From contig OZ239628.1 in assembly GCA_965195345.1 (NCBI GenBank), forward strand, positions 135,298 to 199,297: a stretch of 64,000 bases of DNA. The letters run 5' to 3'. The stretch is from an uncultured Thiomicrospira sp. GTDB taxonomy: Bacteria; Pseudomonadota; Gammaproteobacteria; CAKMZV01. The position numbers and the translations under genes are program-made. Shown here one piece after another: positions 9,764 through 58,092 of the stretch (position 1 is the stretch's first letter; every line of letters begins with the position of its first letter). The notes beneath the pieces are model-generated. The model was given only the letters and a program-made list of their open reading frames with translations, ran no database searches and was not told where the DNA came from.

Positions 9764-12094
9764 ATGACAAATTTAGTTATCGTCGAATCTCCGGCAAAAG
9801 CCAAAACAATAGAAAAATATCTTGGCAAAGACTTTTCTGTCATTTCATCCTTTGGACACATCAGAGACCTTGATAAAAAAGGGATGGGGATTGATATAGA
9901 AAATAATTTCACCCCCATGTATTCTGTATCTCCTGGCAGCACGAAGCATGTTAGTGCCATAAAGAAGCAGCTGAAAAAATCTGAAACAGTCTGGCTCGCG
10001 ACAGACGAAGACAGAGAAGGTGAAGCCATAGCATGGCATCTATACGATGAACTAAAACTCACCGATTCAAATACGCGAAGAATAACCTTTAATGAAATTA
10101 CCAAAGAAGCCATCCTTCACGCAGTAGCACATCCTCGGATGATTGACTTAGATTTAGTGAACGCCCAGCAAGCTCGTAGAGTTATTGATAGATTAGTAGG
10201 TTTCAAGCTCTCCCCTGTTTTATGGAAAAAAATTCAACGAGGGCTATCTGCTGGGCGTGTGCAATCTGTAGCAGTGCGATTGGTTGTAGAAAAAGAACGC
10301 AAAATTCAGCAATTTCAGTCAGTCTCAAACTTCCAAATAGAAGCAAATTTAAAGTCTGGATCAGAAGAAATGAAAGCCCATTATCCCGATACTATTAATA
10401 GTAAGGAAGCGGTTTTGCCATTTTTTAATCAAATTCAGTCAACTCAATGGACGGTAGGAAAAATTAACCGCAAAGTTTCAAAGCGCTCTCCTCAACCGCC
10501 ATTTACTACATCAAGCTTGCAACAAACCGCTTCAAGCATGTTTGGTTTTTCAGTGAAAAAAACCATGGTATTAGCTCAAAAACTGTATGAAGCTGGCTAT
10601 ATAACCTATATGCGAACTGATTCTGTTACCTTATCAAGTCAAGCGCATGAACAAATAAAAAAAGGCATTTTTAAAAGGTTCGGTGATGAATACTATCAAC
10701 ATCGTCTTTATAAGACCAAACAGGGAAATGCTCAAGAAGCTCATGAGGCAATACGCCCAACGGATTTTGACTTCGATATGAAGACTGGCGACAGTGGCGA
10801 AAAAAAACTATACCGCCTCATTCTTGAAAGAACGTTGGCATCTCAAATGTCGGATGCAAAGATTAATCGAACTGAAATAAATATTGATGCTGGTGTGGAA
10901 AAACCTTTTATTTGTAAAGGAGAAGAGGTCGTTTTTGATGGTTTTATGCACTTGACAGGTAGAGGCAGTAAGAACATTATATTGCCTTCCCTAAAACAAG
11001 GCGATCACCTACAAATGCAATCCGTTCAAGCTCGCGAGCGTTTCAGTCGTCCATCCGCACGCTACAGTGAAGCAACTCTTGTGAAAGCGTTAGAAGAGCT
11101 TGGCATTGGCAGACCCTCTACATACGCACCGACCATATCCACCATTCAAGAAAGAGGGTATGTAGAAGTCAGAGATTTAGAGGCACAATCAAGAGAAATT
11201 CAGATTATTGAGTTGTCAGGCGAAGGGATATCTGAAACCGTTGAAAATGAAAAATTTGGTTCCGAGCAAGCTCGAATGATTCCAACGGCAGTTGCAGAGT
11301 TAGTGACAGATTTTCTCATAGAACATGCAGAAAGCATTGTTGATGTTCAGTTCACTGCTAAACTTGAAGCAAAGTTTGACAAAATTGCCAGTGGGAAAGA
11401 ATCTTGGGGAAACATGGTCTCTAATTTCTATTCAACATTTCATCCCATGGTTGATCATGCAAGCCAAGCTCAAAGGCCAAGCGAGACAACGGCCCGATTG
11501 ATTGGAACGCACCCAAAACTGGAAAAACCACTTTATGCAAAAATTGGCAGATACGGTCCTTATGTTCAAGTTGGTGAAAACCCAACAGATGAAGAGCCTT
11601 CTGAAAAGCCTTTATATGCAAGTCTAAGAAAAAATCAAAACATAAATACGATTTCTCTTGAAGAGGCGCTTAAATTATTTGACCTACCAAGAGAGCTCGG
11701 TACTTTGGATAAAGATATACATCATGTTGCGATTGATGGGAGCACGTTTAATGCAGAGAAAGGAGTAACCATTTATGCTAATATTGGTCGATTTGGTCCC
11801 TACCTTCAATACGGCACACGTTCATACGCATCATTAAAAAAAGATCATCCCTCTCCTGAAGAGATAACACTTGAAAGGGCTACAGAGATTATTGATGAAA
11901 AGTTAGCAGCTGATGCTAAAAAACACATTGCAGTCTACGGAGACATCTATGCAATGAAAGGGCCTTACGGTTTTTATCTTAAACAAGGCAGAAAGAATTT
12001 CAAAATATCGCAAGATATGGACCCACAAAACTTATCAGCGCAGGATATTGAGAAAATTTTGACGCAAACTCGCAAAAAAGGGAGAAAAAAATGA
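9764..12094 (+). CDS. topA: DNA topoisomerase I (cysteine-free C-terminal domain)
   Basis: [21 protein letters not shown] (Toprim), [23 protein letters not shown] (catalytic Tyr) and C-terminal [25 protein letters not shown] repeats. The start may instead be the ATG at 9752. Confidence 0.93.
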
Positions 12095-12734: not shown

Positions 12735-14063
12735 ATGCCTAACACATTCAAAACAAAAAAACTGAAATTTCTTAGTATAGGAGTGCTTATCGGTGCTTCT
12801 CTATGGCTATGCTTGCCCTTGCAAGTTACAGCCTCCTCAACGAATCTTCCATTAGAGGAAATTCATCGCTTAAACAACGCATTTGAAACAATTAAAGGAT
12901 CCTACGTCGATGAAATGGACGACAAAGAACTAATTAATGCTGCAATTCGCGGAATGATTAGCGACTTGGATCCCCATTCTGCATATCTTGAACCAGTCGC
13001 CTACAAAAACTTGCGCACATCTACAAGTGGAAAGTTTGGTGGCTTAGGTATAGAGGTCACGATGGAAAACGGTTTTGTGAAGGTAGTTTCCCCCATCGAC
13101 GATACCCCCGCATTCAAAGCTGGCGTGAAAGCTGGTGATTTAATCATTCGCTTAGACGAGTTATCAGTCAAGGGAATGAGTCTCAAAGAGGCTGTTGACA
13201 TTATGCGTGGCGAACCAGGAACAGATATTGAGTTAACTATAGTACGCGAGAACGAAGGCAAACCAATAGAAATAACGATAACTCGCGATATTATTCAAAT
13301 TACCAGTGTTCGTTCAGAAATGCTTGAAGATAATATAGTTTATATACGAATATCCCAATTCCAAGAACCAACCTCTCGGCAAATGTATGAAAAAATCAAA
13401 CAATACCAGCAAGAGAATGGCCGCATAAATGGTCTCATCCTAGATTTGAGGAACAATCCTGGCGGTGTTCTATCTGGCGCGATTGATGTTGCTGGCGCTT
13501 TTTTAGATGAAAAGGTGGTCGTTAAAACAAAAGGTCGTATTCGTAATAGCAGCGAAATTTTCAAAGCCAATCCTGGAGATTTATTGCCAAACACCCCAAT
13601 AATCGTTTTAATAAACGGGGGATCTGCGTCTGCGTCTGAAATTGTTGCCGGCGCTTTACAAGATCATCGTAGAGCTATTATTATGGGTCAAAAAAGTTTC
13701 GGTAAAGGATCTGTTCAAACCGTTATCCCTTTATCAAAAAAGTACGCGATGAAAATAACTACTTCAAGGTATTACACACCTAACGATCGCGCGATACAAG
13801 CAGAGGGCGTAACGCCTGACATAGGAATCCCTATCGTCAAAGTTACTCCTGTTGAACAAATTCAAAGATTTAAAGAGAAAGATTTGTCAGGCCACCTTGA
13901 AAATGAACCCTCCGATGACGCTCAAAAAACAACGACTTCTAACAAAAATACTATTGAAAAGCCTGATACGTTAATTAATGCCGATAGCATAATCGAAAAA
14001 GATTATGAACTTTCTCAAGCAATCAATACACTGAAAGCATTGGGCTTAACCCAAAGAAACTAA
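12735..14063 (+). CDS. ctpA: Carboxy-terminal processing protease (peptidase S41) with PDZ domain
   Basis: Signal-like N-terminus, GKFGGLGIEV, PDZ segment SPIDDTPAFKAGVKAGDLII, LDLRNNPGG, LINGGSASASEIVAGALQD and GQKSFGKGSVQ. Confidence 0.9.
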   Translation: MPNTFKTKKLKFLSIGVLIGASLWLCLPLQVTASSTNLPLEEIHRLNNAFETIKGSYVDEMDDKELINAAIRGMISDLDPHSAYLEPVAYKNLRTSTSGKFGGLGIEVTMENGFVKVVSPIDDTPAFKAGVKAGDLIIRLDELSVKGMSLKEAVDIMRGEPGTDIELTIVRENEGKPIEITITRDIIQITSVRSEMLEDNIVYIRISQFQEPTSRQMYEKIKQYQQENGRINGLILDLRNNPGGVLSGAIDVAGAFLDEKVVVKTKGRIRNSSEIFKANPGDLLPNTPIIVLINGGSASASEIVAGALQDHRRAIIMGQKSFGKGSVQTVIPLSKKYAMKITTSRYYTPNDRAIQAEGVTPDIGIPIVKVTPVEQIQRFKEKDLSGHLENEPSDDAQKTTTSNKNTIEKPDTLINADSIIEKDYELSQAINTLKALGLTQRN

Positions 14064-14084: not shown

Positions 14085-15488
14085 ATGAATGTTAAACCGC
14101 TAAGAAGCATTATTGTAATTTTAATCGTATTTTTTTCCGCAGTTACTATATGGCAAGATAAGCTTTTATCTTTCTTCGAATCAAATCCTCAACTTAATGG
14201 TTTCATTGTCCTTGCAATGCTTGTTGGCATGATTTTTATCACTTGGAACGCCGCCCGTTTAGGAACAATGATACGAATCCTTAAACAAGCTGACGAAAAG
14301 CCTGACGATTACAAAAAAATCATTAGTAATTCCAAAGTATTTGAAACATTCATGTCACGTAAAGATGTGGATACTGTTCGTGGATGGAATGAAGAGAATC
14401 TTTTTAGCGCAGAACAGGTAGACGATATTCTCAGCAGTATGAGACTTCGAATCGGCGAAATTAGAAATTTTTCTAATTACTTTTCAGGCGTATTAATCAT
14501 TCTTGGCTTATTAGGGACGTTTCTTGGCCTCTTGGAAACCATTAAAGCTATTTCTGAGGTATTCAGTGGACCCTCACTAAAGTTCTTGGTAGGTACTAAA
14601 GATACTGGAGCTGCAGGTGGTGCAGAAGTACTTACGTTTTTTGAAGCAATAGCAAAACCACTCGCTGGTATGGGTATTGCGTTTTCATCTTCCCTATTTG
14701 GTTTATCTGGTTCTTTGTTTGTCGGTTTGCTTGCTTTTGTTTCCTCAAGAAGTCAATCTTTCTTCTTATTTGATGTATTTGATTGGTTCAAAAGTCGAAC
14801 CGTTGAAAAAGATAAAGAGTCGCTTGATAAAAAATCGATGACTAACATGAAAGGTGGATCTGGAGGGGCTGGAGGCTTAATGGGCTCGCTTATTTCTCGA
14901 GGAGTTCAGCACTCACAAACCTCTCAATCTGGTGGTGGAACTGGCAATGTTACTGGAACAGGGCACTTTAAAGGTGATTTTGATGGTCGTTCTTTAACAG
15001 AGGTATTTGATCGACTTGAATTGCTATCAAAAGATGCTATTGAAAAAAATGGACTGCTGGCTCAAGCTGCGCTGAAACTGGGTGAAAACCTTGCTTTGGA
15101 ACAAAAACGGTTAGCAGACATCGCCACATACCAACAAAGATCTTCCACTTTTCTTGCCAGCATAAATGAACAAAGTGCCCAGCAAATTCATATTATGAAT
15201 CAACTAGTTGAAGCAAGTCATAGTAATACAGATCGAGAAGAGTTTAGAGCGCTTGCCTCACATTTCCACCGTTCCTTTGACAAATTACTAAGTGAAGTTA
15301 GCACATCAAATCGCCACTTATTAGAGAACATTAAGATCAGAGGAGATGCACCTATCGGCAACATCGACCCATATGGGAATCAAAATCCTACTGCTCAAAA
15401 CAATCCAATTGAACCCAACCCACCCTCTTATACAACGGCGGTTGATGCGCAACATTTTGAATCTTCAGGTCAAGAAGACCGTCGTTAA
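14085..15488 (+). CDS. MotA/TolQ/ExbB-family proton-channel protein with about 240-aa C-terminal Gly-rich plus coiled-coil tail
   Basis: Four hydrophobic segments in MotA-like order (about aa 8-22, 38-55, 131-150, 190-220). Family motif VLIILGLLGTFLGLLETI and last TM GMGIAFSSSLFGLSGSLFVGLL (compare TolQ GLLGTVxGI / ALxTTxxGL). A good RBS (AAGGAAG) lies 21 nt after ctp. Confidence 0.75.
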   Translation: MNVKPLRSIIVILIVFFSAVTIWQDKLLSFFESNPQLNGFIVLAMLVGMIFITWNAARLGTMIRILKQADEKPDDYKKIISNSKVFETFMSRKDVDTVRGWNEENLFSAEQVDDILSSMRLRIGEIRNFSNYFSGVLIILGLLGTFLGLLETIKAISEVFSGPSLKFLVGTKDTGAAGGAEVLTFFEAIAKPLAGMGIAFSSSLFGLSGSLFVGLLAFVSSRSQSFFLFDVFDWFKSRTVEKDKESLDKKSMTNMKGGSGGAGGLMGSLISRGVQHSQTSQSGGGTGNVTGTGHFKGDFDGRSLTEVFDRLELLSKDAIEKNGLLAQAALKLGENLALEQKRLADIATYQQRSSTFLASINEQSAQQIHIMNQLVEASHSNTDREEFRALASHFHRSFDKLLSEVSTSNRHLLENIKIRGDAPIGNIDPYGNQNPTAQNNPIEPNPPSYTTAVDAQHFESSGQEDRR

Positions 15489-15505
15489 CAGGTCAATGTA
15501 AGCCT

Positions 15506-16288
15506 ATGGAATCTCAAGACTTAAATAGAATTGTTTGGCCAAGCTGTGTCGACATTTTTGGTCAAGTTGTGGTGACAATGGCATTCTTCTTCCTACTAAT
15601 ATTTATAATTTTAGCCTATTTCCTTGCTCAAATAGAATTTAGCAAAAGAGTTCAATCGACTGTTATCTCATATCAGACTTTATACAAACCAATTGCTGAT
15701 TTTTTATCCCCTTCTAACATAAGAAAACAAAATATTAAGAAAGAAAATCTGGATAACTTAATTTTACAGATAGAGACCTATGTTAAGTCAGTTCCTGTTG
15801 ATCGTGTTGTAGAACTTAAAACCCTAATTAAGCAAAGGGATAACTTGGTGGAAACAGTGCACAAGTTGGGCTTTACCAGCTATACACCGCAACCTTTAAA
15901 AGCCGAAATAGACACTATGGCAGTTATCTCTGGAGAAATAATAAACTATAAAGGTCGTTGGGATATATCAAGGCAAGGTGATAGTATTATTATTAACTTT
16001 AGTAATAATGGTATCATTCCTGATGAAGAATCATTGGCTTCAATTAGAACAACTCTTCGTGCTTTTGTTGCCACCTTAGGGAACAGGAGAGTTCAAGTTG
16101 AAGGGACTCAAAGCCCATCGGTTCGTAATAATGCTTTAAATAGTAGGCAAGTCATCGCACGGAATTTTGAGATTCGAAATATACTGAATCAATTTGGTGT
16201 AGATAAGAGAAACATCGAACTCATTAAATCGCCACCATTAAATAGTTATCCGCATGGCGCTATTTTTATAAAAGTTATGCCTAATTAA
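15506..16288 (+). CDS. MotB/TolR/ExbD-like single-pass membrane protein 1 with degenerate OmpA-like C-terminal region
   Basis: N-terminal IVWPSCVDIFGQVVVTMAFFFLLIF resembles MotB [20 protein letters not shown], with Asp16 (codon 15551-15553) at the position of the proton-relay Asp. C-terminal ...IIINFSNNG...RRVQVEGTQSP...NSRQVIARNFEIRNIL..GVDKRNIEL follows the OmpA-like layout, but the HTD/N..LS..RA residues are mostly replaced. Confidence 0.6.
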   Translation: MESQDLNRIVWPSCVDIFGQVVVTMAFFFLLIFIILAYFLAQIEFSKRVQSTVISYQTLYKPIADFLSPSNIRKQNIKKENLDNLILQIETYVKSVPVDRVVELKTLIKQRDNLVETVHKLGFTSYTPQPLKAEIDTMAVISGEIINYKGRWDISRQGDSIIINFSNNGIIPDEESLASIRTTLRAFVATLGNRRVQVEGTQSPSVRNNALNSRQVIARNFEIRNILNQFGVDKRNIELIKSPPLNSYPHGAIFIKVMPN

Positions 16289-16289
16289 C

Positions 16290-17141
16290 ATGAAGGATAT
16301 TCAAGATGATCGCACTCAAGATCGTAATTACGAAGGTGATTTTTGGCCAGGATTTGTCGATATCATGTCAGGTATTATTCTCGCCTTAAGCTTTCTGGTT
16401 TTAATAGCAGGCATCATTATTGCCATAATTTTCAAAGTAAATGTTACTATCAAAATTTTAAAGGACGAAGAAATACTTTATAAATACGTTCTTACCGTTT
16501 TGCAAGAATCTCCTTTGTTGACTGAAGCACAGTTTGATGTCATAGAAAAAGCGAAGGAGGGTGAATCTCTGCAAGTGCTGGTTTCAGACACAGTCCGTGA
16601 GTTAGAAAACGTTGCTGAGCGGACGCACGTTGTTCGTGATGAATATCCAGAGTTGAAAAGACGCATTCTTCAAGAAATTAGTTTTCTTGAGCTTCAGGTT
16701 GACCAACTCAGCAATCCCCCTCAAGGCCAAACAGAATCGTTATTAAAAAGTAAAGGTGGTCTCTCAAACAATACGGTTTCTCATTCAAAAGTGCCTCCTG
16801 CCGAAAAAAACTGGGATATTCGTCGATTTGATGAATCACTATTAGTTCAATTTACTAACACCTCAAGTGCTCGCCCAGAAGCTAAAGCATTTGCTGAGTT
16901 TAGGGCGTCTTTACTTCAGTGGTTGAATAATCGCAAAGGAACCATTCAGTTGTCCGTTAAGAACGCAGATGCCGTTTATCAATCGTTGGCTAATCGAGAT
17001 TCATTGGCGCGCGTTTTGTATGTAAGAGACGTCATCCGAAGTTTCGACCCAACTATAAAGATGTCTATTTCCAAAAATGCAAACACACCTGAAAAACTGA
17101 AAGACGAAAAATTCGGCTGGATCTTGATAACTTTGGAATAA
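16290..17141 (+). CDS. MotB/TolR/ExbD-like single-pass membrane protein 2 (distant paralogue of 15506-16288)
   Basis: N-terminal DFWPGFVDIMSGIILALSFLVLIAG, with Asp24 (codon 16359-16361). C-terminal LLVQFTNTS...TIQLSVKNADAV..LANRDSLARVLYVRDVI follows a degenerate OmpA-like layout. It starts 1 nt after the previous stop. Confidence 0.6.
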   Translation: MKDIQDDRTQDRNYEGDFWPGFVDIMSGIILALSFLVLIAGIIIAIIFKVNVTIKILKDEEILYKYVLTVLQESPLLTEAQFDVIEKAKEGESLQVLVSDTVRELENVAERTHVVRDEYPELKRRILQEISFLELQVDQLSNPPQGQTESLLKSKGGLSNNTVSHSKVPPAEKNWDIRRFDESLLVQFTNTSSARPEAKAFAEFRASLLQWLNNRKGTIQLSVKNADAVYQSLANRDSLARVLYVRDVIRSFDPTIKMSISKNANTPEKLKDEKFGWILITLE

Positions 17142-17178
17142 TAATTTCTATGGAACTAGAAAATCGAAGGGAATACAA

Positions 17179-18462
17179 ATGAAATATAAAATCACAGGGT
17201 TCTTTTTAATTGTTTTTATGATCAGCCCATCAGTTTGGAGCCTTGATCTTCAACAATCTGTTCTAACTGCTTTAGGTCGTGTAGAGGAATCAAAGATTGT
17301 TGCATCACAAATTCGACAGGGGCAAAATAGAATTGATGAGGCTGATGCTGCTTACTATCCTAATTTATCTGTCAACATACAGACGGGTACAGAGTTTCGT
17401 ACTCCAGGCTTTATAGCAGGTCAAACAGATGATACTTTCTATTCTTATCGATTAAGAACAACGCTTGATCAGCATCTATTTGATGGTGAAAGCAGACGGT
17501 TTTCTCTCGAAAATAGTAAGCTTTCTTTAAAGGCAACTGAATTTCAAGCCCAATCTGTTCTTGAAAGAGTTACTTTTGACGTTGTAACAAGTTATTTAAA
17601 CGTTGTTTATGTGGGTGAAGTAGTTCGCACACACAAAGAGAATTTAGTTGATTTCCAGCGCATATCAAAACAAATTGATGCGCGCGCACAAGGTGGTGCA
17701 TTACCAACGGCTGATGCGCAACAAGTCAAAGCACGTGTTGTTGGTGCTGAAGCCGCCTTAAGTCGTGCTCAGTTAGAACTTTCCGAAGCTGAATTCTCAT
17801 ATACTAGACTTGTTGGACCAGTTGAAAGTGATATGTCTATCCCGTTTGAAGTGCCTGATATCTTTTTCGAAAACTATGGTTTACTTTTGGAAAAAATGCG
17901 CACTCAAAACACTGGACTTCAACAAGCAAAATATAATCGCAGAGTAGCATTGACAGACATAAATATATCCAAAGCGGCCTTCTGGCCAACTATTTCTTTT
18001 CAACTACTGCTTCAAAATGAAAACACTTTCTCAGGAGGACAGGGAGAAATAAATCAGGCAGGCGCCTTTTTCAATTTGAACTACAACTATAACTTGGGGG
18101 GCGCTACAGAAAACAGTGTGGATAGAGCTGAAGAGCGTTCTAAAGAATTATTCCTTTTAAGGCAGCTCTTGCGTCGCGATTCAGAAATAACTTTGCAGAC
18201 GGCCTATTCAAATTATCTATCATTCAAAAAGGTTAATCGAGCCATTCAATTAGAGATTGAATCTAATCGTAAGGTTCTTGAGGCTCAATTACAACAACAG
18301 CGGTTTGGCGATGTAAGGGTCTTGGATTTAGTCACTGCACAAGAGCGATTAAATGATGCCAGAATTCGTTTACTACGTAGCCAATTGGACGAGCAATTAA
18401 CACGCTATCAAATTCTACAACTGATTGGTGAAATTCTAACGCACTTTAATTCTTCAGGCTAA
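17179..18462 (+). CDS. tolC: TolC-family outer-membrane channel (type I secretion / efflux outer membrane protein)
   Basis: Signal peptide, then LDLQQSVLTALGRVEESKIVASQIRQGQNRIDEADAAYYPNLSV. There is a two-fold repeated coiled-coil/beta architecture with a second half ...ISKAAFWPTISFQ.... Length is 427 aa. Confidence 0.8.
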   Translation: MKYKITGFFLIVFMISPSVWSLDLQQSVLTALGRVEESKIVASQIRQGQNRIDEADAAYYPNLSVNIQTGTEFRTPGFIAGQTDDTFYSYRLRTTLDQHLFDGESRRFSLENSKLSLKATEFQAQSVLERVTFDVVTSYLNVVYVGEVVRTHKENLVDFQRISKQIDARAQGGALPTADAQQVKARVVGAEAALSRAQLELSEAEFSYTRLVGPVESDMSIPFEVPDIFFENYGLLLEKMRTQNTGLQQAKYNRRVALTDINISKAAFWPTISFQLLLQNENTFSGGQGEINQAGAFFNLNYNYNLGGATENSVDRAEERSKELFLLRQLLRRDSEITLQTAYSNYLSFKKVNRAIQLEIESNRKVLEAQLQQQRFGDVRVLDLVTAQERLNDARIRLLRSQLDEQLTRYQILQLIGEILTHFNSSG

Positions 18463-18486
18463 GTCACTGAAAATCAAAAACAATTC

Positions 18487-18515
18487 TTGACATTTTAATC
18501 CGCTGCCATCATAAT
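18487..18515 (+). promoter_or_regulatory. Candidate sigma70 promoter of the RTX gene
   Basis: TTGACA (18487-18492), a 17-nt spacer, then CATAAT (18510-18515), in the 129-nt gap between tolC and the RTX gene. A purine-rich RBS (GAAGGAAG) precedes the ATG at 18592. Confidence 0.5.
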
Positions 18516-18591
18516 GATTTAATAGTGGAGAATTAACTATTCATTCCAAAAATAAATAATAGTAAAAAATAGTACGAAGGAAGATAGTAGG

Positions 18592-21500
18592 ATGGAATTA
18601 AAATCTGTTGTTGAATATACTGACCGCGGGCTAAAAATCGCGCAGCCTCTTGAAAATGAAAAACATTTAGTTTACGTTCGTCCAGGGGATAATATTGAGC
18701 TTGATTTCTCAGATCAAGATCTTGCGTTTTATCTTGTTGACGGCGACGTTATTGTCAATTCGCCCCAAGGCGGACAGCTCGTGTTTCTTCAACTTGGCAG
18801 TTTGGCTCTCAATCTTGATGATGCCCCTACCCTTATAGCAAGTGCGGGCGATAAAATTGACATTCTTTCTCGGGTTGAAGTTAGCCCTCTTATTGATCAA
18901 GAAAAAGATATAACAGACAAGTTTCTTGAGCTGCAAGCTGCAAGTGAAAAGCATGAGGTTGAGGAAGAGTCTTTAGCTCGTCAGAGAGAATTGCTCGAAG
19001 AAACATTGGAAAGTATTGAACAATACGTGTCTCAAGTGTCTGAATCAGCAGTTGCAGGTCCTAACGATACCGATCAGAGTGACGGAGAACAAAGAAGCGG
19101 TGACTTGTCAACAGTCGAATTTGTACAACAAACTGTTTCTCAAGAAGTTAGATCTTCTGAAGCCACATCGATTCCTGAGCCTCAACAAATAGACGTTGAC
19201 TCCCAATCTCAAACTCAATCAGGGGAGGGGGAGGTCGATCGAGTTGAACAACTTCCTCAATTACCTGTCCTTAATTTTTCTCTTAATAACGCCGAAGTTC
19301 TTCATGTTGCCCAACGGGTAACAGCAGTTCCTGGGAATCCAGCAACTACCACCATACTTGGTGGATCTGGAAGCTTACAAGGTGCAGTGAGTCCAAATCT
19401 TCCTGATAGGATTGCAAATGAAACATTAGGTGATACTGGTAGCTCATCAAATCAAACCATTCAAACCGAGAATAATTTATTTTTTAATGGATCAACAGCT
19501 GCTCAAGTCATCAGCTTAAATCCTTCTGCTCCTGACGGGTTTGATGTGCAGACCATCAGTATCAATGGATTCCCTGCAGGCTCTATCATATATGCGAACG
19601 ATGGAACATCCAGTACCCCTATACTGAATACTGCTTTGTCTCCTGGGGCAGACTTAACTTTTCAAAGAATAACCGCCGGTGATACTCCAAGCGACACGAG
19701 CATCTCGTTTTTAAGCAATACGGATATCTCATTTATCATTGTTTATCCACAAGCACAAGCAACTACTGTGCCCTTTTCTCTAACCGTAAATGCTACCGCC
19801 ACCTTTAACCCAAGCTCAGGCTTCGACGCTCCTAACGTCACAACATTAACAGCGCAGAATACCCTTAGCGGGATTGTACAGCAGCAAGTGGTTTCTGCAA
19901 CAGATTTAGCGACGGCAGATTTGGTTTTAAGCTCCGTTCCAACTACAAACGAAGTAACTACCGGTTCTGGGGATGATACGATATTTGGCGGGAGCGTGGT
20001 TGACATTATCAACGGTGGCGATGGCAATGATATATTCACAACTTTTGAAGGACAGGATACTGTTGATGGTGGGGGTGGCTCAGATACGTTGTACTACGGC
20101 ATAGATGGTAACTTTGGTTATTTACCTACTACAATTGGTGCTTTAAATGGAGTTGTCATTGATATGGCTAACCCTACTGCCAATGGGTCAGTTGCGGTAG
20201 CGGTTGGAACGGGGCCAGATATAGACGCTATTCGTAATGTTGAAAACATTGTTGCCTCTTTTGGCAATGACACAATACGTGGTGATGCTGCCGATAATAC
20301 ATTCAGAGGTCTGGCTGGAGATGACTCCCTTTCAGGAGGACTAGGAAACGATACTCTTGATGGCGGTGATGGAATTGATGTTGTCGACTTTAGAGATTCT
20401 GCAACAGCAATATCAGCTAATATCTCAATGACCTCTAATACTTCATTTTCAGCTGGAGCAATTAATGCAGCCTCATCAACTGGTCAAGGAACGGACTCTT
20501 TGATCGGAATTGAAAACATAATAGGCTCTTCACTCGCCGACATAATCATCGGTGATGCCGCCGCCAATACAATCAGCGGAAGCGGTGGAAACGATACTAT
20601 CTTGGCTGGTGGCGGTGTAGACATTATTGATGCGGACGGCGAATTGTTGCGCGATTTAAATAATAACGGCGATACTAACGATCCCCTTGAAACTGCCATT
20701 GCAGGAAATCAAGACACTATAGATTATAGCTGGCTTCCAGCAAATATGGGAGGAGTGGACGTTAACCTTTCCCAGCAAACAGGGAATAACGTTACTTATT
20801 TAGCAGATACTAATACTCCAGGTAGCGTTGATCAAAGTGGAGGAACTGTCTCTAATTTTGAAAATATCAGAGGTTCTCAAAACAATGACGTCCTCACAGG
20901 TGATGCTGGAGACAACGTCTTTTTTGCATCTTCAGGATTAGATGTCATTGCAGGGGGTGATGGCACAGATACATTAGATTTTTCCAATAATACGATAACA
21001 TCAAGTGATGATGTTTTTGGGGACTCTACAATAACTAGTAATATTGATCTGAACAACGGTTCCTATACCATCTCCGCCTCAGATGGAACAACCATCGCTG
21101 AAAGCACAAATGTATCAAATATAGAAAACGTAATCGGAACCGATGGCAACGACGTGATATCAACTTCAAGAAATTTGATAGGAAATAGCACTGTGATAAG
21201 TGGCGGGGGCAACGACACTATCAATGCCAGCGCAGGGAACAACTCTATTGATGGCGGCACAGGAATTGATACTGTAAACTATTTGGCTTTTACTGCAACC
21301 GACGCTATTAATGTGAACTTAAATACGAACATTGTAGATAAAGAAACTTCTGGCAGCGACACATTAACAAGCATAGAAAATGTGACGGGAACAACCAACA
21401 ACGACTCGTTCATTGGTAATGCCCAAGCTAATACCTTTGATGGACTTGGTGGAAATGACACCTTCAATTACAGCACTTCAAGCTCTTTAACAGAGAACAA

Positions 21501-24500
21501 TGATACTTTTATGGGAGGTGATGGAATAGATACTGTTGATTTTAGTAGCCTTGCAATTCCAACTGGGACGCGTCCATCAAATCAAGTCGTTACTGATACA
21601 ATTTTAGGGAATACGGTTACAACCACTTTATTAGACTTTAATCAAAATGGTATAGCAGTTAATCTTTCAAATCCCGATGCTTCAGGCAATTCATCAGTAA
21701 GCGTACTCTCTAATACACTTGCTTTGAATGGAATTGAGGAAATTATTGGCACTGGGAATGGGGATATTTTGATTGGCGATACCTCATCAAACACGTTAAT
21801 AGGAAATAACGGTAATGATTACCTCTTGGGGCTTTCTGGTTCAGATAGTCTTTCGGGGGGAGCGGGTAATGACACTTTATCTGGGGGAGCTGGAAACGAC
21901 ATATTAGATGGAGGAGTCGGACAAGATTGGTTGATCTACAACACATCCACTTCAGCGATAAATGTTAATCTGCAAACCAGCACCGTTAGCAGTGATGGCT
22001 TTGGTTCTATAGATACCATTACTGGATTTGAAAACGTCCTGGGCGGAGATTTTAATGATGATATAACAAGCGCGAGCGCAAGTACTATTGTAGGCGGGCT
22101 TGGAAATGATACCGTTCGAGTAGGCGTTGGAGCGACAGGGACATTCTCATTTTATGGAGATAACGTCGCAACCCTAACTGATCAAACCTTAATGCATCAA
22201 GTTGACAATACCGTCAATAATAATGACGTTGTTGATTTTTCCAATAGCTCTCAACCGCTATTTGTCGATTTAACAAGCCCTTTAAATCAATTTCTTCTCG
22301 GATCTAGAGTAGACGCTAATGGTGACGGTATATTTACTGACGCCGATATTACTTCTCCTACTGGATTTGCCTTTGGCTTCGAAAGCGTTACTGGAACCGC
22401 ATCTAATGACATTCTAATCGGTGATTTAAATAATAACATTCTTAATGGTGGGGATGGAGACGATACCATCAATGGTGGAGCAGGAAATGACACGCTTCGT
22501 GGTGGAAATGGCAATGATACTTTAGATCTTAGCGCTTCATCAGAAGCACAAAGAATTGATTTATCATCAACAGTAAATCAAACAACCGCATTCCTCACTC
22601 AGGATAGTTATCTCGGTTTTGAAAATGTCAATACGGGCGGTAATGTGGATTCAATTATTGGCAGTTCGAGCGATAATATTATTTTTTCCGGAGCCGGTAA
22701 CGATGATATCAGTGGCAGTTTAGGTCAAGATACAATTGATGGTGGAACCGGCGTTGATCAACTTAGTTACGCTTTGCTTAATACGGCAATTACTGCAAAT
22801 TTTGCAACTGCGCCAACAAATTTGCAGATTAACGGTTCAACCCAGACATTTAGCAATATCGAAAATTTAACAACTTCTCAAGGAAACGACACCTTGACGC
22901 TTGGGTCCAATTTAATGTTTGTTGATGGAAGTGCAGGAAATGACACCTTCAACTTACAGAATGCTCAAGGAACCGTTGGTGTGGTCTTAGCAGATGGAGG
23001 AACTGGCACAGATACGGCGTCCTTTGCTCAATCGATCGGTCAAGTGACAATCTCTGCAGGCGGGTCAACGAACGCATTAGGGATATCCGTTTCAGGATCC
23101 AGATATGATATTCAAGACTTTGAAACGCTCATCCTATCTAATCAAAATGATACTGTTCAAAGTATTGCTAACTTTGGATCCAGTCTTAATATTCAGTCGG
23201 GTCAGGGTAATGACACGATCACAGGTGGAAGCAATAATGACACTTTAGACAGTGGCTCTGGCAACGACATGATATTTGCAAGCCTTGGTTCGGATGCGAT
23301 TGAAGGTGGGATTGGTACCGATACGCTTTCGTATGCAAATTTGACAAGTACATCAACCGTTGCACTTACTGCAGGTGCGAGCCAAGTAACTGTAGCTGGC
23401 ACTAATGCATTTACCGACATGCTGACTAATGTTGAATCATTAGTCCTTGGTGGTGGGAGCGACAGTATCAATATAAGCGGTATTAATGGATTAGGGACAG
23501 TTGATGCTGGAGGTGGGCAAGACAGTGTTTCGTTCGCCAGTGCTGTGACAACGACAGACGGCGCTAACTTTTCGATCGCATCTTCAAACATAAATCTTGT
23601 AAATGTCGAAAATTTTAATGGCAGTGCCCAAGCAGATACCTTAGACTTTGGGAATATTTCCACAGGGATTACTGTTGTAGGGGGTGACGGAAATGACACT
23701 ATAACGGGCTCTTCTGCTCAAGATATTTTGGAAGGAGGCGCAGGCTCTGACATCATAAATGCTGGAGGAGGAGGAGGCACTATTTTTGGAGGCACTGCCG
23801 ATGGTGATACGATAACAGGGAGCGCAATGGGCGGAGTGGGTCTGCTCGATACTCTTAGTTATTCAACTCCTTCTTTTAGCAGTACAACGCCGACTACTTC
23901 TAATTTCACTGCTACTTTAGACGCAAATACAGGCACTATTTCTGATGGAATAGGTACGGACACCGTAAATCAAGCACAAGGTGCTATAGAAAATTTTGTT
24001 TTTGGAAGTGGTAATGACATCGTTAATGTTGATATTGATTTAATTAACGCTGCAGTAGACTCAGGGATAAACCAAATTGACACTGGATTGAACAGTGCAT
24101 TATCCCCTACAAATAATGGTGATGAAATTAGGCTTACTGGCGACTTGGTAGGAGGAGGAGCAACAAGCATTAATTCATCAGGTATTGGCGCCAATTTTAC
24201 AGCGACAATGTTTCAAAACATCGAAATACTTGACCTTACTGACGTAACAACGAACGGGAACAATAACCTCCAACTTGATGCCGAATTTCTGAGAAATTGG
24301 ACGCAAGATGCTGCAACTGGAACAGACGGGAATACTCGTGTATTAAACATATTCGTTGACGCAGATACTACTTTAAGCTTCGGTTCAAACGCTACGCCAC
24401 CCGCAGGCACAGGCTCAGATTTTTACTTCTATGAGGATGTTGGTGGGACTGCGAGCAACTCTCTAATTGGTGATCTGGTGAATCCAACGTTTCTCGGTAA

Positions 24501-24672
24501 TTTAGACGGCACCCTTACAGGCAACATCCCTACTGGAACAAACTCCCCTGCAGGAGCTCCTGCAAACACAACTTCTGGAACGGTTACCCTCACTGCAAAC
24601 GATCAATATTCTTTAACATATACTGAAAGTGGTCAGGACGGATTAGCAATAATCATTACAGCAATGGCGTAA
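18592..24672 (+). CDS. Giant RTX-type calcium-binding repeat protein (2026 aa), probable type I secretion substrate
   Basis: More than 50 GGxGxD-type nonapeptide units by eye between about 19963 and 24030 (for example GGAGNDTLSGGAGNDILDGGVGQD, NGGDGDDTINGGAGNDTLRGGNGNDTLD). They are organised in blocks preceded by [IF]EN[VI]xG motifs. The N-terminal about 455 aa is non-RTX. There is no signal peptide and no cysteine, and the C-terminus is acidic/hydrophobic, typical of T1SS cargo. Confidence 0.9.
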   Translation: MELKSVVEYTDRGLKIAQPLENEKHLVYVRPGDNIELDFSDQDLAFYLVDGDVIVNSPQGGQLVFLQLGSLALNLDDAPTLIASAGDKIDILSRVEVSPLIDQEKDITDKFLELQAASEKHEVEEESLARQRELLEETLESIEQYVSQVSESAVAGPNDTDQSDGEQRSGDLSTVEFVQQTVSQEVRSSEATSIPEPQQIDVDSQSQTQSGEGEVDRVEQLPQLPVLNFSLNNAEVLHVAQRVTAVPGNPATTTILGGSGSLQGAVSPNLPDRIANETLGDTGSSSNQTIQTENNLFFNGSTAAQVISLNPSAPDGFDVQTISINGFPAGSIIYANDGTSSTPILNTALSPGADLTFQRITAGDTPSDTSISFLSNTDISFIIVYPQAQATTVPFSLTVNATATFNPSSGFDAPNVTTLTAQNTLSGIVQQQVVSATDLATADLVLSSVPTTNEVTTGSGDDTIFGGSVVDIINGGDGNDIFTTFEGQDTVDGGGGSDTLYYGIDGNFGYLPTTIGALNGVVIDMANPTANGSVAVAVGTGPDIDAIRNVENIVASFGNDTIRGDAADNTFRGLAGDDSLSGGLGNDTLDGGDGIDVVDFRDSATAISANISMTSNTSFSAGAINAASSTGQGTDSLIGIENIIGSSLADIIIGDAAANTISGSGGNDTILAGGGVDIIDADGELLRDLNNNGDTNDPLETAIAGNQDTIDYSWLPANMGGVDVNLSQQTGNNVTYLADTNTPGSVDQSGGTVSNFENIRGSQNNDVLTGDAGDNVFFASSGLDVIAGGDGTDTLDFSNNTITSSDDVFGDSTITSNIDLNNGSYTISASDGTTIAESTNVSNIENVIGTDGNDVISTSRNLIGNSTVISGGGNDTINASAGNNSIDGGTGIDTVNYLAFTATDAINVNLNTNIVDKETSGSDTLTSIENVTGTTNNDSFIGNAQANTFDGLGGNDTFNYSTSSSLTENNDTFMGGDGIDTVDFSSLAIPTGTRPSNQVVTDTILGNTVTTTLLDFNQNGIAVNLSNPDASGNSSVSVLSNTLALNGIEEIIGTGNGDILIGDTSSNTLIGNNGNDYLLGLSGSDSLSGGAGNDTLSGGAGNDILDGGVGQDWLIYNTSTSAINVNLQTSTVSSDGFGSIDTITGFENVLGGDFNDDITSASASTIVGGLGNDTVRVGVGATGTFSFYGDNVATLTDQTLMHQVDNTVNNNDVVDFSNSSQPLFVDLTSPLNQFLLGSRVDANGDGIFTDADITSPTGFAFGFESVTGTASNDILIGDLNNNILNGGDGDDTINGGAGNDTLRGGNGNDTLDLSASSEAQRIDLSSTVNQTTAFLTQDSYLGFENVNTGGNVDSIIGSSSDNIIFSGAGNDDISGSLGQDTIDGGTGVDQLSYALLNTAITANFATAPTNLQINGSTQTFSNIENLTTSQGNDTLTLGSNLMFVDGSAGNDTFNLQNAQGTVGVVLADGGTGTDTASFAQSIGQVTISAGGSTNALGISVSGSRYDIQDFETLILSNQNDTVQSIANFGSSLNIQSGQGNDTITGGSNNDTLDSGSGNDMIFASLGSDAIEGGIGTDTLSYANLTSTSTVALTAGASQVTVAGTNAFTDMLTNVESLVLGGGSDSINISGINGLGTVDAGGGQDSVSFASAVTTTDGANFSIASSNINLVNVENFNGSAQADTLDFGNISTGITVVGGDGNDTITGSSAQDILEGGAGSDIINAGGGGGTIFGGTADGDTITGSAMGGVGLLDTLSYSTPSFSSTTPTTSNFTATLDANTGTISDGIGTDTVNQAQGAIENFVFGSGNDIVNVDIDLINAAVDSGINQIDTGLNSALSPTNNGDEIRLTGDLVGGGATSINSSGIGANFTATMFQNIEILDLTDVTTNGNNNLQLDAEFLRNWTQDAATGTDGNTRVLNIFVDADTTLSFGSNATPPAGTGSDFYFYEDVGGTASNSLIGDLVNPTFLGNLDGTLTGNIPTGTNSPAGAPANTTSGTVTLTANDQYSLTYTESGQDGLAIIITAMA

Positions 24673-39710: not shown

Positions 39711-39826
39711 TCGTTTTATCTGTTAATCTTTTCTATTTCAGAAGGAGACAATTCGTCTAAGAACTTCTCTCCCTGTTGTCTTGCTGTTTGCCTTTATTCT
39801 ATACATCCATAATAAAAGGATGTGAA

Positions 39827-45853: not shown

Positions 45854-45862
45854 AGGGAAAGA

Positions 45863-50783: not shown

Positions 50784-50785
50784 GT

Positions 50786-55277: not shown

Positions 55278-55278
55278 T

Positions 55279-58060: not shown

Positions 58061-58092
58061 TTTAACAACCCATTTATTTAATAAATAAAATC

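What the first reader, a model, noticed from the sequence alone, without database searches (positions are those of the whole stretch)
14085..24672. Candidate uncharacterised envelope machine: MotA/ExbB-type channel, two MotB-like subunits and TolC, adjacent to a 2026-aa RTX protein, with no ABC transporter or membrane-fusion protein
Seen in the sequence:
- Same-strand genes 12735-14063 (ctp), 14085-15488, 15506-16288, 16290-17141 and 17179-18462 are separated by only 21, 17, 1 and 37 nt.
- A 129-nt gap with a near-consensus TTGACA-17-CATAAT promoter follows, then a 6.1-kb RTX gene.
- The first protein has MotA-like four-TM topology and the GLLGTFLGL channel motif.
- The next two each have one TM carrying W-P-x-x-V-D-I, with an Asp where MotB Asp32, TolR Asp23 and ExbD Asp25 sit.

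Established knowledge:
- Such A/B pairs form ion-driven 5:2 rotary motors (MotAB, ExbBD, TolQR, AglRQS, GldLM, ZorAB).
- RTX proteins without signal peptides are exported by an ABC transporter, an MFP and TolC.

Inference:
- The TolC gene is here wired to a stator-like module instead of an ABC/MFP pair.
- This suggests a proton-motive-force-powered unit that acts on TolC and/or the giant RTX surface protein (secretion assistance, retention or release, or moving it along the surface).
- Possible parallels are the one-A/two-B AglRQS gliding motor and the RTX-like oscillin of gliding cyanobacteria.
- I know of no described system with this composition.
Basis: partly seen in the sequence, partly recalled or inferred. 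Interest (0 to 1): 0.85.

Follow-up and report, generated by a model that had tools for sequence, protein, structure and literature searches.

The report
Stator-like motor module linked to TolC/RTX secretion
Four adjacent genes encode a MotA/MotB-type ion-driven membrane motor (one A subunit and two B subunits) plus its own TolC-like outer-membrane channel, a module that in many other bacteria lies inside type I secretion operons for giant RTX proteins and whose only studied counterpart is Salmonella SiiAB.

Summary
Genes A (14085-15488), B (15506-16288), B' (16290-17141) and a TolC-family gene (17179-18462) are packed head to tail, and a 2026-aa RTX gene follows.

**What the parts are**
- An AlphaFold model of A matches only ZorA, ExbB, TolQ and PomA.
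- B has an N-terminal transmembrane helix with an invariant Asp and an OmpA-like periplasmic domain. That domain superposes best on Salmonella SiiA.
- B' is a paralogue of B.

**Linkage**
- A-B-B'-OEP is conserved in all relatives recovered, in several genomic contexts.
- A sister family, A-B-OEP, was found in 49 species.
  - It sits next to giant RTX-motif proteins in 36.
- The N-terminal domain of the window's RTX protein recurs in RTX proteins beside such modules.

**Verdict**
- The stator/TolC/RTX link is genuine.
- The claims "instead of ABC/MFP" and "no described system" are not supported. The Salmonella SPI-4 system (SiiABCDF plus SiiE) is the precedent.
- The ABC/MFP pair is probably encoded elsewhere in the genome.
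- Best reading: a proton-driven accessory that controls retention or release of RTX proteins in a dedicated TolC. It is a new variant with a duplicated B subunit and a separated ABC/MFP.

The parts
14085..15488 (+). A subunit, 467 aa. MotA/ExbB/TolQ/ZorA-fold membrane protein with four transmembrane segments, the LGLLGTFLGL motif at nt 14502-14531, and a roughly 230-residue C-terminal tail that includes a helical hairpin (residues 301-420), presumed cytoplasmic.
   Evidence: AF2 model: pLDDT 76 overall, block means mostly above 90 for residues 1-250 with a dip to 67-89 at 151-200. The Foldseek PDB top 50 are all ZorA, ExbB, TolQ or PomA (best 8vvn_D, E 4.5e-3, prob 1.0). PADLOC ZorA1 scores 5.5e-9. 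Pfam MotA_ExbB scores only 12.1 bits against a 22.9 cut-off. More than 5000 homologues were found.
15506..16288 (+). B subunit, 260 aa. MotB/SiiA-like: a short cytoplasmic N-terminus, WPSCVD with Asp16 (nt 15551-15553) at the start of one transmembrane helix, a helical linker, and an OmpA-like periplasmic domain (about residues 150-260) with family-wide invariant Arg219 and nearly invariant Arg224.
   Evidence: AF2 model: C-terminal domain pLDDT about 87. Foldseek returns OmpA-like domains, with the best TM-score to SiiA-PD 6qvp (TMt 0.78-0.81, rmsd 2.6 A). A family profile hits AbOmpA at 1.4e-4 and C. jejuni MotB at 2.2e-4.
16290..17141 (+). B' subunit, 283 aa. Paralogue of B with WPGFVD and Asp24 (nt 16359-16361), one transmembrane helix, a longer linker, and the same C-terminal domain with Arg241 and Arg246.
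   Evidence: hhalign gives B versus B' 96.5% over 237 columns, and the B' C-terminus versus the single B of type I-linked loci 98.8%. The B' transmembrane segment matches the PRK09039 MotB/OmpA-type proteins. Both paralogues are present in every member of the clade.
17179..18462 (+). TolC-family outer-membrane channel (OEP), 427 aa, with a Sec signal peptide. It is dedicated to the module.
   Evidence: Pfam OEP 1.1e-35; TIGR01844 186 bits, below cut-off. It always follows B or B' in related loci. phmmer hits the module-linked OEPs (median 73 bits, n=47) but not E. coli TolC.
18487..18515 (+). Sigma-70-like promoter match TTGACA-17-CATAAT in the 129-nt gap before the RTX gene.
   Evidence: 11 of 12 positions, the best in the region. 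It is a consensus match only, and overall counts are not above shuffles.
18592..24672 (+). RTX protein, 2026 aa. Probable substrate or cargo: no signal peptide, a conserved non-repeat N-terminal region (residues 12 to about 430, nt 18625-19900), and RTX nonapeptide blocks across residues 475-1720.
   Evidence: 16 HemolysinCabind stretches and 19 GGxGxD motifs. The N-terminal region is homologous (E 9e-15 to 2e-7, N-terminus to N-terminus) to RTX-motif proteins encoded beside A-B-OEP modules in L103, L107, L112, L128, L093 and L137.

Best explanation
Genes 14085-18462 encode a stator-type, ion-driven inner-membrane complex together with its own TolC-family outer-membrane channel. The complex is made of A, probably a pentamer, around an axle formed by B and B'.

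The module is an accessory of a type I secretion system, not a replacement for one. [quoted passage not shown] The cargo is giant RTX proteins, including the adjacent 2026-aa one.

By analogy with Salmonella SiiAB, proton flow through the A/B channel depends on the transmembrane Asp residues (Asp16 in B, Asp24 in B'). That flow is converted into a conformational or rotary action. The action is transmitted through the OmpA-like, peptidoglycan-anchored B domains and the cytoplasmic tail of A to the secretion conduit. It decides whether the N-terminal domain of the RTX protein stays lodged in the TolC channel (surface display) or is released.

**Shown here:** the folds, the conserved residues and the gene linkage.

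**Inferred:** the 5:2 stoichiometry, the B/B' heterodimer, proton conduction, the presence of ABC/MFP elsewhere, and the retention/release role.
For: **Identity of the parts**
- The model of A matches only subunits of 5:2 motors.
- B has an OmpA-like domain closest in shape to SiiA-PD.
- The B family has invariant Asp16 and Arg219 and nearly invariant Arg224. The Arg-x4-Arg spacing is the same as SiiA Arg162/Arg167, which are needed for peptidoglycan binding (PMC12607715).
- A B-family profile reaches full-length MotB at E 2e-4.

**Linkage to the OEP**
- A-B-B'-OEP is conserved in L001, L172, L002-L004, L005, L006 and L007; these contigs show four different upstream neighbourhoods.
- A-B-OEP is present in 46 of 46 evaluable loci from 49 species.
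- The window's OEP resembles those OEPs and not E. coli TolC.

**Linkage to type I secretion**
- ABC plus MFP are directly adjacent in 30 of 49 loci and in L011. They are LssB/HlyB-type and HlyD-type.
- Giant RTX-motif ORFs lie within 10 kb in 36 of 49 loci.
- The window's B and B' are homologous over their full length or C-terminal domain to the B of those loci. Its A scores higher against their A (330) than against the alphaproteobacterial two-gene type (264).
- The RTX N-terminal domain is shared with RTX proteins next to such modules.

**Precedent**
- SiiAB conducts protons (Asp13-dependent) and binds peptidoglycan.
- SiiB binds the ABC protein SiiF.
- SiiAB is dispensable for secretion but governs PMF-dependent retention of SiiE through the SiiE N-terminus (10.1101/641415; PMC12607715; PMC6272769; 10.1101/2021.05.14.443827).
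Against: - No ABC transporter or MFP is present in the 64-kb window. The rest of the genome could not be inspected.
- In the closest relatives the RTX gene is absent from the locus (L001, L172, L002-L006). Adjacency to RTX is therefore not conserved within the clade.
- In 19 of 49 sister loci no ABC/MFP lies within 10 kb.
- Specific orthology with SiiAB is not shown. The B-family profile hits SiiA-PD only at E 0.3, weaker than MotB or OmpA. SiiB could not be obtained for comparison.
- The canonical OmpA Asp of the peptidoglycan-binding pair is not conserved.
- The gene order differs from SPI-4, where the B-like gene comes first.
- Function is inferred entirely from context and one model system.
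Confidence: 0.6

Rival explanations
1. Autonomous PMF-powered TolC machine. A/B/B' act directly on the OEP without any ABC transporter or membrane-fusion protein. They export, retain or move a surface protein, or gate the channel for some other purpose.
For: - No ABC/MFP lies in the window, nor within 10 kb in any contig of the window's own clade, nor in 19 of 49 sister loci.
- About a dozen of those sister loci still have a giant RTX gene beside A-B-OEP.
- Some module OEPs carry large unexplained N-terminal extensions.
Against: - Where DNA allows, 30 of 49 sister loci have ABC-MFP contiguous with A-B-OEP in one gene string.
- By established knowledge, RTX proteins without a signal peptide need an ABC/MFP pair.
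- The only studied homologue-like system, SiiAB, is an accessory that is not required for secretion (PMC12607715).
- Unlinked type I components are common; E. coli tolC versus hlyBD is one example (established knowledge).
Confidence: 0.15
2. Housekeeping envelope-maintenance stator. It would be a Tol-Pal-like or OM-tethering system related to the alphaproteobacterial A plus OmpA-type B pair, using the OEP as its outer-membrane partner. The RTX gene would be a chance neighbour.
For: - The cassette lies among core genes (topA, purE, ctp, alaS, recA).
- The RTX gene is absent from the locus in the nearest relatives.
- A belongs to a superfamily whose largest branch is a chromosomal two-gene pair with no OEP or type I genes, seen in at least 572 alphaproteobacterial and other species.
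Against: - B and B' share their C-terminal domain with the B of type I-linked loci. They share only the transmembrane segment with the alphaproteobacterial B.
- The OEP is of the module-linked type.
- The RTX N-terminal domain recurs next to such modules in unrelated bacteria, which chance adjacency does not explain.
Confidence: 0.15
3. Component of a pilus-like or type II-like apparatus. The stator and OEP would work with pseudopilins rather than with an RTX protein.
For: In L002-L004, L005 and L006, two prepilin-type genes (T2SSG, N_methyl) follow the OEP gene at 12-40 nt, although the upstream and farther-downstream genes differ among these contigs.
Against: - No pseudopilin gene is adjacent in the window, L007, L001 or L172, or in the 49 sister loci. 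Only an orphan N_methyl ORF lies 21 kb away.
- No secretin, ATPase or platform genes were seen.
Confidence: 0.05
4. A second flagellar stator or a Zorya-type anti-phage system.
For: Some databases name homologues "flagellar motor protein MotA". There are weak PADLOC and NCBIfam ZorA hits, and ZorA is the top structural match.
Against: - No flagellar genes and no ZorC/ZorD-like genes are nearby. PADLOC gives nothing for B, B' or the OEP.
- The ZorA hits are far below family cut-offs (15 bits against 500).
- The conserved partner is an OEP, not Zorya effectors.
Confidence: 0.02

Closest known systems
Salmonella enterica SPI-4 type I secretion system: SiiA/SiiB accessory proton channel with SiiC (TolC-like), SiiD (MFP), SiiF (ABC) and the giant adhesin SiiE
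   Same: - A MotA-like and a MotB-like gene lie adjacent to a dedicated TolC-family gene and a giant Ca-binding type I substrate.
- The B-type protein is short, with an Asp at the start of a single transmembrane helix (SiiA Asp13, helix 14-38; here Asp16 and Asp24).
- The minimal OmpA-like periplasmic domain of B superposes on SiiA-PD at TM 0.78-0.81 and 2.6 A.
- An Arg-x4-Arg pair is present, as in SiiA Arg162/Arg167 (PMC12607715).
- The A-type protein is of similar size (467 aa versus 462).
- The substrate has a special non-repeat N-terminal region.
   Different: - There are two B paralogues instead of one.
- The gene order is A-B-B'-OEP; SPI-4 is B-A-OEP.
- ABC and MFP are not in the locus.
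- The substrate is an RTX-repeat protein, not a BIg-repeat adhesin.
- Sequence-level kinship with SiiA is not significant (E 0.3), and SiiB was not compared.
- A carries a long coiled-coil tail.
Undescribed ABC-MFP-A-B-OEP type I operons of Micavibrio-like and other uncultured Alphaproteobacteria, Rickettsiales, Granulosicoccus and Pseudomonadales
   Same: - A, B and OEP are homologous.
- The A-B-OEP order is the same.
- Giant RTX-motif proteins lie alongside.
- In six loci the RTX N-terminal domain is the same as in the window.
   Different: - These loci have a single B of 190-276 aa.
- A is usually longer (456-628 aa).
- ABC and MFP are contiguous in 30 of 49 loci.
- I found no publication describing them in the library searched.
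Flagellar MotAB/PomAB, ExbBD, TolQR and ZorAB 5:2 motors
   Same: - The fold of A.
- The transmembrane Asp of B.
- The OmpA-like anchor domain, as in MotB, PomB and ZorB. A B-family profile aligns with C. jejuni MotB over residues 26-230 (E 2e-4).
   Different: - Pfam MotA_ExbB and OmpA models score below threshold.
- The partner is a TolC-family channel, not a rotor, TonB/TolA or ZorC/D.
- The canonical peptidoglycan-binding Asp is lost.
Alphaproteobacterial MotA-like plus PRK09039 "peptidoglycan-binding protein" gene pair
   Same: - The A subunit is clearly homologous (hhalign E 1e-35).
- The B' transmembrane segment with WPGFVD matches.
   Different: - That pair has one long B (340-1100 aa) with a canonical OmpA domain.
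- It has no OEP, no type I genes and no RTX neighbour in 80 of 80 loci.
Myxococcus AglRQS (one TolQ-like, two TolR-like subunits)
   Same: One A gene plus two B-type genes, which suggests a heteromeric axle.
   Different: - AglQ and AglS are TolR-type, without OmpA-like domains (established knowledge).
- No Glt gliding genes are present here.
- No sequence relationship was detected.

Membership tests
MotA/ExbB/TolQ/ZorA superfamily (A subunit of 5:2 motors) | Characteristic helical membrane fold | tested here: met
   The Foldseek PDB top 50 hits are all ZorA, ExbB, TolQ or PomA, with prob 0.84-1.0 and TMt 0.29-0.57. The model's block-mean pLDDT is mostly above 90 for residues 1-250, dipping to 67-89 at 151-200.
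MotA/ExbB/TolQ/ZorA superfamily (A subunit of 5:2 motors) | Pfam PF01618 MotA_ExbB above the gathering threshold | tested here: not met
   12.1 bits against a cut-off of 22.9. Only some distant homologues pass, for example P0025 at 24.8 bits.
MotA/ExbB/TolQ/ZorA superfamily (A subunit of 5:2 motors) | Conserved polar (Thr) residue in the channel-lining helix | tested here: inconclusive
   Thr145 in LGLLGTF is invariant in 88 homologues. Its equivalence to the essential Thr ring of MotA/ExbB/TolQ (PMC12204202) is inferred and was not aligned residue by residue.
MotA/ExbB/TolQ/ZorA superfamily (A subunit of 5:2 motors) | Assembly as an A5:B2 complex that conducts ions | not testable with these tools
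   No multimer prediction or experiment was available.
MotB/PomB/ZorB/SiiA-type B subunit | Single N-terminal transmembrane helix with a conserved Asp | tested here: met
   Asp16 (B) and Asp24 (B') lie in WPxxVD. The Asp is invariant in 35 and in 122 family members. Each protein has one hydrophobic segment.
MotB/PomB/ZorB/SiiA-type B subunit | OmpA-like periplasmic domain | tested here: met
   Fold: 39 PDB matches at E <= 1e-3; the listed matches are OmpA-like domains. Sequence profile: AbOmpA 1.4e-4 and MotB 2.2e-4. The single-sequence Pfam OmpA score is below threshold at 12.8 against 27.2. B' was not modelled; its domain is inferred from hhalign.
MotB/PomB/ZorB/SiiA-type B subunit | Canonical peptidoglycan-binding Asp/Arg pair of OmpA-like domains | tested here: inconclusive
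   The Arg is kept (Arg219 aligns with the Arg of LSLARA in AbOmpA). The GHTD Asp position is not conserved.
SiiAB-type accessory of type I secretion (SPI-4) | MotA-like and MotB-like genes adjacent to a dedicated TolC-family gene and a giant type I substrate | tested here: met
   Window gene order, conserved in relatives and in the sister family.
SiiAB-type accessory of type I secretion (SPI-4) | ABC transporter and MFP in the same locus | tested here: not met
   None in the 64-kb window. Present in 30 of 49 sister loci.
SiiAB-type accessory of type I secretion (SPI-4) | Specific sequence homology to SiiA and SiiB | tested here: inconclusive
   SiiA-PD has the best TM-score (0.78-0.81), but the sequence profile gives only E 0.3. 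The SiiB sequence could not be retrieved, because the scan for the Salmonella locus failed.
SiiAB-type accessory of type I secretion (SPI-4) | Asp-dependent proton conduction and PMF-dependent substrate retention | not testable with these tools
   Needs experiments. These properties are known for SiiAB only (10.1101/641415; PMC6272769).
Canonical type I secretion system (ABC + MFP + TolC) | All three components encoded | tested here: not met
   Only the OEP is in the window. The rest of the genome is unseen.
Zorya anti-phage system | ZorA/ZorB together with ZorC/D or other Zorya effectors | tested here: not met
   There are weak ZorA-model hits only: PADLOC 5.5e-9, and NCBIfam 15 bits against 500. 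B, B' and the OEP give no PADLOC hit. The neighbours are an OEP and an RTX gene.
Legionella lssXYZABD locus (considered) | LssX/Y/Z-type proteins upstream of the type I genes | not tested
B and B' give no LssY or PAP2 Pfam hit. My recollection that LssY is a PAP2 protein comes from memory only. The idea was dropped.

The most novel reading that the evidence does not exclude
The A-B-B'-OEP cassette is a self-sufficient, proton-motive-force-driven outer-membrane machine. A 5:2-type motor with a heteromeric B/B' axle would act directly on a dedicated TolC-like channel, with no ABC transporter or membrane-fusion protein, to export, hold or release giant RTX proteins. In sister lineages it might act on pseudopilin-like proteins instead.

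The evidence does not exclude this. No ABC/MFP gene is seen near the cassette in any member of its clade, nor in 19 of 49 sister loci.
Probability: 0.08. Interest if true: 0.9.

Novelty: new variant of a known kind. Interest (0 to 1): 0.55.

Why it matters
SiiAB of Salmonella has been treated as a one-off oddity, and how it uses the proton-motive force to hold or release a type I substrate is still unknown.

This locus and the survey it prompted show that stator-like A/B pairs welded to a dedicated TolC gene are widespread:
- 49 species representatives in Alpha- and Gammaproteobacteria.
- 473 B-family clusters at E <= 1e-10.
- Usually beside giant RTX proteins, and often inside ABC-MFP operons.

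That turns the SiiAB question into a general one about PMF-coupled control of type I secretion. It also supplies natural variants to compare: one B versus B plus B', linked versus unlinked ABC/MFP, a shared substrate N-terminal domain, and cultured hosts such as Granulosicoccus.

A practical point follows. None of these proteins reaches the curated score cut-off of a Pfam or NCBIfam model; their best hits are sub-threshold. Genome annotation therefore misses the module.

Tried and rejected
1. **Legionella lssXYZABD as the identity of the cassette.** The paper read (PMC6959600) gives no MotAB link, and B and B' have no LssY or PAP2 hit. The idea was dropped.
2. **Direct sequence searches of A.**
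   - Against PDB sequences: no hit for the single sequence.
   - Against PDB with a profile: only ZorA at E 0.029.
   - Against plasmids by tblastn: no match.
3. **Close relatives of A in GTDB species genomes.** A single-protein scan found none. The lineage is known only from metagenome contigs.
4. **Retrieving Salmonella SPI-4 to compare SiiA and SiiB directly.** I fetched loci around uvrA with E. coli UvrA as the query.
5. **Looking for SiiA among B-family representatives.**
   - I searched by length and by Asp13/Arg162/Arg167 and found none in the 150 listed.
   - A wider B-family profile reaches SiiA-PD only at E 0.3.
6. **ctp (12735-14063) as part of the system.** It is adjacent only in the window, L007, L001 and L172, where topA-purE-ctp synteny is shared. 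It is absent upstream in L002-L006. I treat it as a neighbour.
7. **RTX N-terminal region against PDB sequences.** Nothing was found.
8. **Flagellar-stator and Zorya readings.** Both were rejected on context.

Full report
**1. The observation**

- ctp, 12735-14063
- A, 14085-15488
- B, 15506-16288
- B', 16290-17141
- OEP, 17179-18462
- RTX, 18592-24672

The intergenic gaps are 21, 17, 1, 37 and 129 nt. The TTGACA-17-CATAAT site at 18487-18515 is the best sigma-70-type match in the region, with 11 of 12 positions. The overall number of such matches is not above shuffled sequence, and no terminator-like hairpin precedes the RTX gene.

A has four hydrophobic segments and LGLLGTFLGL at residues 140-149. 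B and B' each have one hydrophobic segment, preceded by WPSCVD (Asp16) and WPGFVD (Asp24). The RTX protein has 16 Pfam RTX stretches. The OEP is TolC-family but scores below the TIGR01844 cut-off.

No type I ABC transporter or membrane-fusion protein is encoded anywhere in the 64-kb window (phmmer; Pfam). The window is otherwise housekeeping DNA of a deep-branching gammaproteobacterium. Its AlaS is at most 55% identical to uncultured Gammaproteobacteria, Piscirickettsiaceae and Legionellales MAGs.

**2. What the proteins are**

Standard libraries barely see A:
- Pfam MotA_ExbB: E 0.16.
- NCBIfam ZorA_4: 15 bits.
- PADLOC ZorA1: 5.5e-9.

An AlphaFold2 model built on 88 homologues has block-mean pLDDT mostly above 90 for residues 1-250, with a dip to 67-89 at 151-200. 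Its 50 best PDB matches are all A subunits of 5:2 motors: ZorA, ExbB, TolQ and PomA. After the fourth transmembrane helix comes a tail of about 230 residues with a helical hairpin (residues 301-420). The tail sequence is strongly conserved within the clade.

B was modelled on 19 sequences. Its C-terminal 110 residues (pLDDT about 87) form an OmpA-like domain. Among many OmpA, MotB, Pal and YfiB matches, the tightest superposition is on the peptidoglycan-binding domain of Salmonella SiiA (6qvp; TM 0.78-0.81, rmsd 2.6 A).

B' is a full-length paralogue of B (hhalign 96.5%).

Across 122 members of the B family:
- Invariant: Pro12, Asp16 and Arg219.
- Nearly invariant: Trp11, Arg224 and Asn225.

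Arg219 aligns with the peptidoglycan-binding Arg of A. baumannii OmpA, while the partner Asp of the GHTD motif is lost. A B-family profile reaches C. jejuni MotB over almost its whole length (E 2.2e-4), and reaches SiiA-PD only at E 0.3.

So A, B and B' are bona fide members of the MotAB/ExbBD/ZorAB superfamily. They form a family of their own, and orthology with SiiAB is not demonstrated.

**3. Gene neighbourhoods**

Close relatives of A (48-60% identity) exist only on metagenome contigs. In all of them the order A-B-B'-OEP is kept, although the flanks differ:
- topA-purE-ctp upstream and cinA-recA downstream in L001 and L172.
- Three other upstream contexts in L002-L004, L005 and L006.

The RTX gene is present only in the 98%-identical contig L007. 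In L002-L006 two prepilin-type genes follow the OEP.

More distant homologues fall into two groups. I surveyed them by my own ORF calling plus phmmer on loci fetched from one genome per GTDB species.

*Group i.* The 80 loci nearest to window A, mostly Alphaproteobacteria, carry A immediately followed by a long OmpA-type B of the PRK09039 family. They have no OEP.

*Group ii.* The 49 loci nearest to a long-form A (P0012) come from Micavibrio and other uncultured Alphaproteobacteria, Rickettsiales, Granulosicoccus and Pseudomonadales.
- They carry A (456-628 aa), a short B (190-276 aa) and an OEP.
- The OEP is present in 46 loci. The other three are cut by contig ends.
- In 30 loci an ABC transporter and an MFP are contiguous, as ABC-MFP-A-B-OEP or A-B-OEP-ABC-MFP.
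- In L092 these are an LssB/HlyB-type ABC (681 bits to TIGR03375) and a HlyD-type adaptor (356 bits).
- In 36 of the 49 loci an ORF of 700 to more than 3200 aa, rich in GGxGxD motifs, lies within 10 kb.

**4. Where the window's cassette belongs**

- Its B aligns over its full length with the short B of group ii (hhalign 97.8%).
- The C-terminal domain of B' aligns with the same domain (98.8%). Against the alphaproteobacterial B of group i, only the transmembrane segment matches.
- Its A scores higher against group ii (330) than against group i (264).
- Its OEP finds the group ii OEPs (median 73 bits) but not E. coli TolC.
- Residues 12-340/430 of the window's RTX protein, a non-repeat region, are homologous N-terminus to N-terminus with RTX-motif proteins encoded beside A-B-OEP modules in six loci. 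These are Micavibrio-type loci, L093 and a Rickettsiales MAG (E 9e-15 to 2e-7).

The RTX gene is therefore not a random neighbour. The same substrate family travels with this kind of module in distant bacteria, even though the adjacency has been lost in the closest relatives.

**5. Comparison with what is known**

The literature held here describes exactly one type I system with a MotAB-like accessory: Salmonella SPI-4.
- SiiA is 210 aa with Asp13, a transmembrane helix at 14-38 and an OmpA-like domain. Peptidoglycan binding needs Arg162 and Arg167.
- SiiB is MotA-like and 462 aa.
- Together they form an inner-membrane proton channel.
- SiiB interacts with the ABC protein SiiF.
- SiiAB are not needed for secretion of SiiE. 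They control its PMF-dependent retention on the surface, which also depends on the SiiE N-terminal region.

Sources: 10.1101/641415; PMC12607715; PMC6272769; 10.1101/2021.05.14.443827. A 2025 review of 5:2 motors lists SiiAB as the type I secretion representative (PMC12204202).

The idea that the stator replaces ABC/MFP is contradicted by the sister loci. Searches for RTX-linked or non-Salmonella examples found nothing, so the broad family appears undescribed within that library.

**6. Mechanism proposed**

Shown:
- The folds.
- The conserved Asp and Arg residues.
- The obligatory A/B-OEP linkage.
- The frequent ABC/MFP and RTX linkage.
- The shared substrate N-terminal domain.

Inferred:
- A forms a pentamer around a B/B' dimer. 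The retention of both paralogues with their Asp in every member of the clade favours a heterodimer, as one-A/two-B sets do in AglRQS.
- Protons passing the Asp residues drive a conformational or rotary change.
- The OmpA-like domains anchor or activate the complex at the peptidoglycan under the dedicated OEP.
- The cytoplasmic tail of A contacts the ABC transporter, which is encoded elsewhere.
- The output sets whether the N-terminal domain of the RTX protein is held in, or released from, the OEP.

I put 0.6 on the accessory-of-type-I reading as a whole. I put considerably more on "stator-like complex functionally tied to this OEP", and less on the specific retention/release role.

**7. Rivals**

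| Reading | Confidence | Note |
|---|---|---|
| Autonomous PMF/TolC machine | 0.15 (about 0.08 for the strict form with no ABC/MFP anywhere in the genome) | Cannot be excluded, because the rest of the genome is unseen |
| Housekeeping envelope stator with a fortuitous RTX neighbour | 0.15 | See rival explanations |
| Pseudopilin-linked apparatus | 0.05 | See rival explanations |
| Flagellar or Zorya | 0.02 | Rejected on context |

**8. Limits**

- The survey used mechanical ORF calls, single-sequence phmmer queries and 10-kb flanks.
- It used only the 80 loci per scan that ranked nearest to the query.
- B' was not modelled.
- SiiB could not be retrieved.
- All functional statements rest on context and on one experimental system.

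**9. Verdict**

This is a real and well-conserved module. It is a new variant of a known but little-studied kind (SiiAB-type PMF accessory of type I secretion), with a duplicated B subunit and an unlinked ABC/MFP.

Noticed in passing
L002:6326-7483; L005:9675-10614; L006:13024-13988; window 39776-40387: In the sister subclade, two prepilin/pseudopilin genes (T2SSG, N_methyl) follow the cassette's OEP gene at 12-40 nt, although the upstream and farther-downstream genes differ among these contigs. The window has only an orphan N_methyl ORF 21 kb away.
   Followed up: partly
L012-L091 (for example L008:6001-7994): A two-gene pair is present in at least 572 GTDB species hits, mostly Alphaproteobacteria. 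It consists of a MotA-like A homologue immediately followed by a PRK09039 OmpA/MotB-type protein of 340-1100 aa, with no OEP or type I genes. I know of no assigned function.
   Followed up: partly
L141-L144, L146, L150, L154 (about 9788-11017 in each): Rhodobacteraceae and Paracoccaceae carry a 405-aa A-like gene with no detectable B-like neighbour.
   Followed up: no
L011:12009-14234; L092:14003-16258; L094:7640-9871; L102:4496-6928 and 8 other loci: An autotransporter-family protein of mostly 740-820 aa (PF03797 in L011) is conserved right beside the ABC-MFP-A-B-OEP genes in 12 Micavibrio-like loci. It may be a further component or a second cargo.
   Followed up: partly
L124:12002-15229; L114:6598-8739; L118:11981-14023; L120:9325-11454: Some module-linked OEPs carry N-terminal extensions of roughly 150-660 residues with no Pfam match. 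The OEP domain starts at residues 269-663.
   Followed up: partly
window 18625-19900 (RTX residues 12-430): The RTX protein's N-terminus has three parts: a conserved beta-rich block of about 90 residues, an acidic coiled-coil-like stretch, and a second conserved block (GGxGS...GF...G.P). This layout recalls the beta-sheet / coiled-coil / beta-sheet N-terminus of SiiE that governs retention. It matches no Pfam family or PDB sequence.
   Followed up: partly
window 12735-14063: A periplasmic S41 C-terminal processing protease gene ends 21 nt before gene A. This holds in the window, L007, L001 and L172 only. It is probably just synteny, but a protease next to an adhesin-retention module recalls LapG.
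   Followed up: partly
window 52807-59697: A MoxR ATPase - DUF58 - VWA - VWA/TPR - BatD operon (Bat-type). A recent paper proposes vWA proteins as force transducers of TolQ-like motors, but no motor gene is adjacent here.
   Followed up: no
window 28849-30474 (-): A subtilase (S8) with a proprotein-convertase P-domain and a lipoprotein-like signal sequence lies 4 kb downstream of the RTX gene.
   Followed up: no
window 44331-51880 compared with L001:1-3911 and L001:14452-16446: Relative to the 55-60% identical relatives, the window has rearranged. cinA-recA and dnaE-lptF-lptG, which flank the cassette region in L001 and L172, lie 26-33 kb downstream here. RTX-alaS follows the OEP instead.
   Followed up: no
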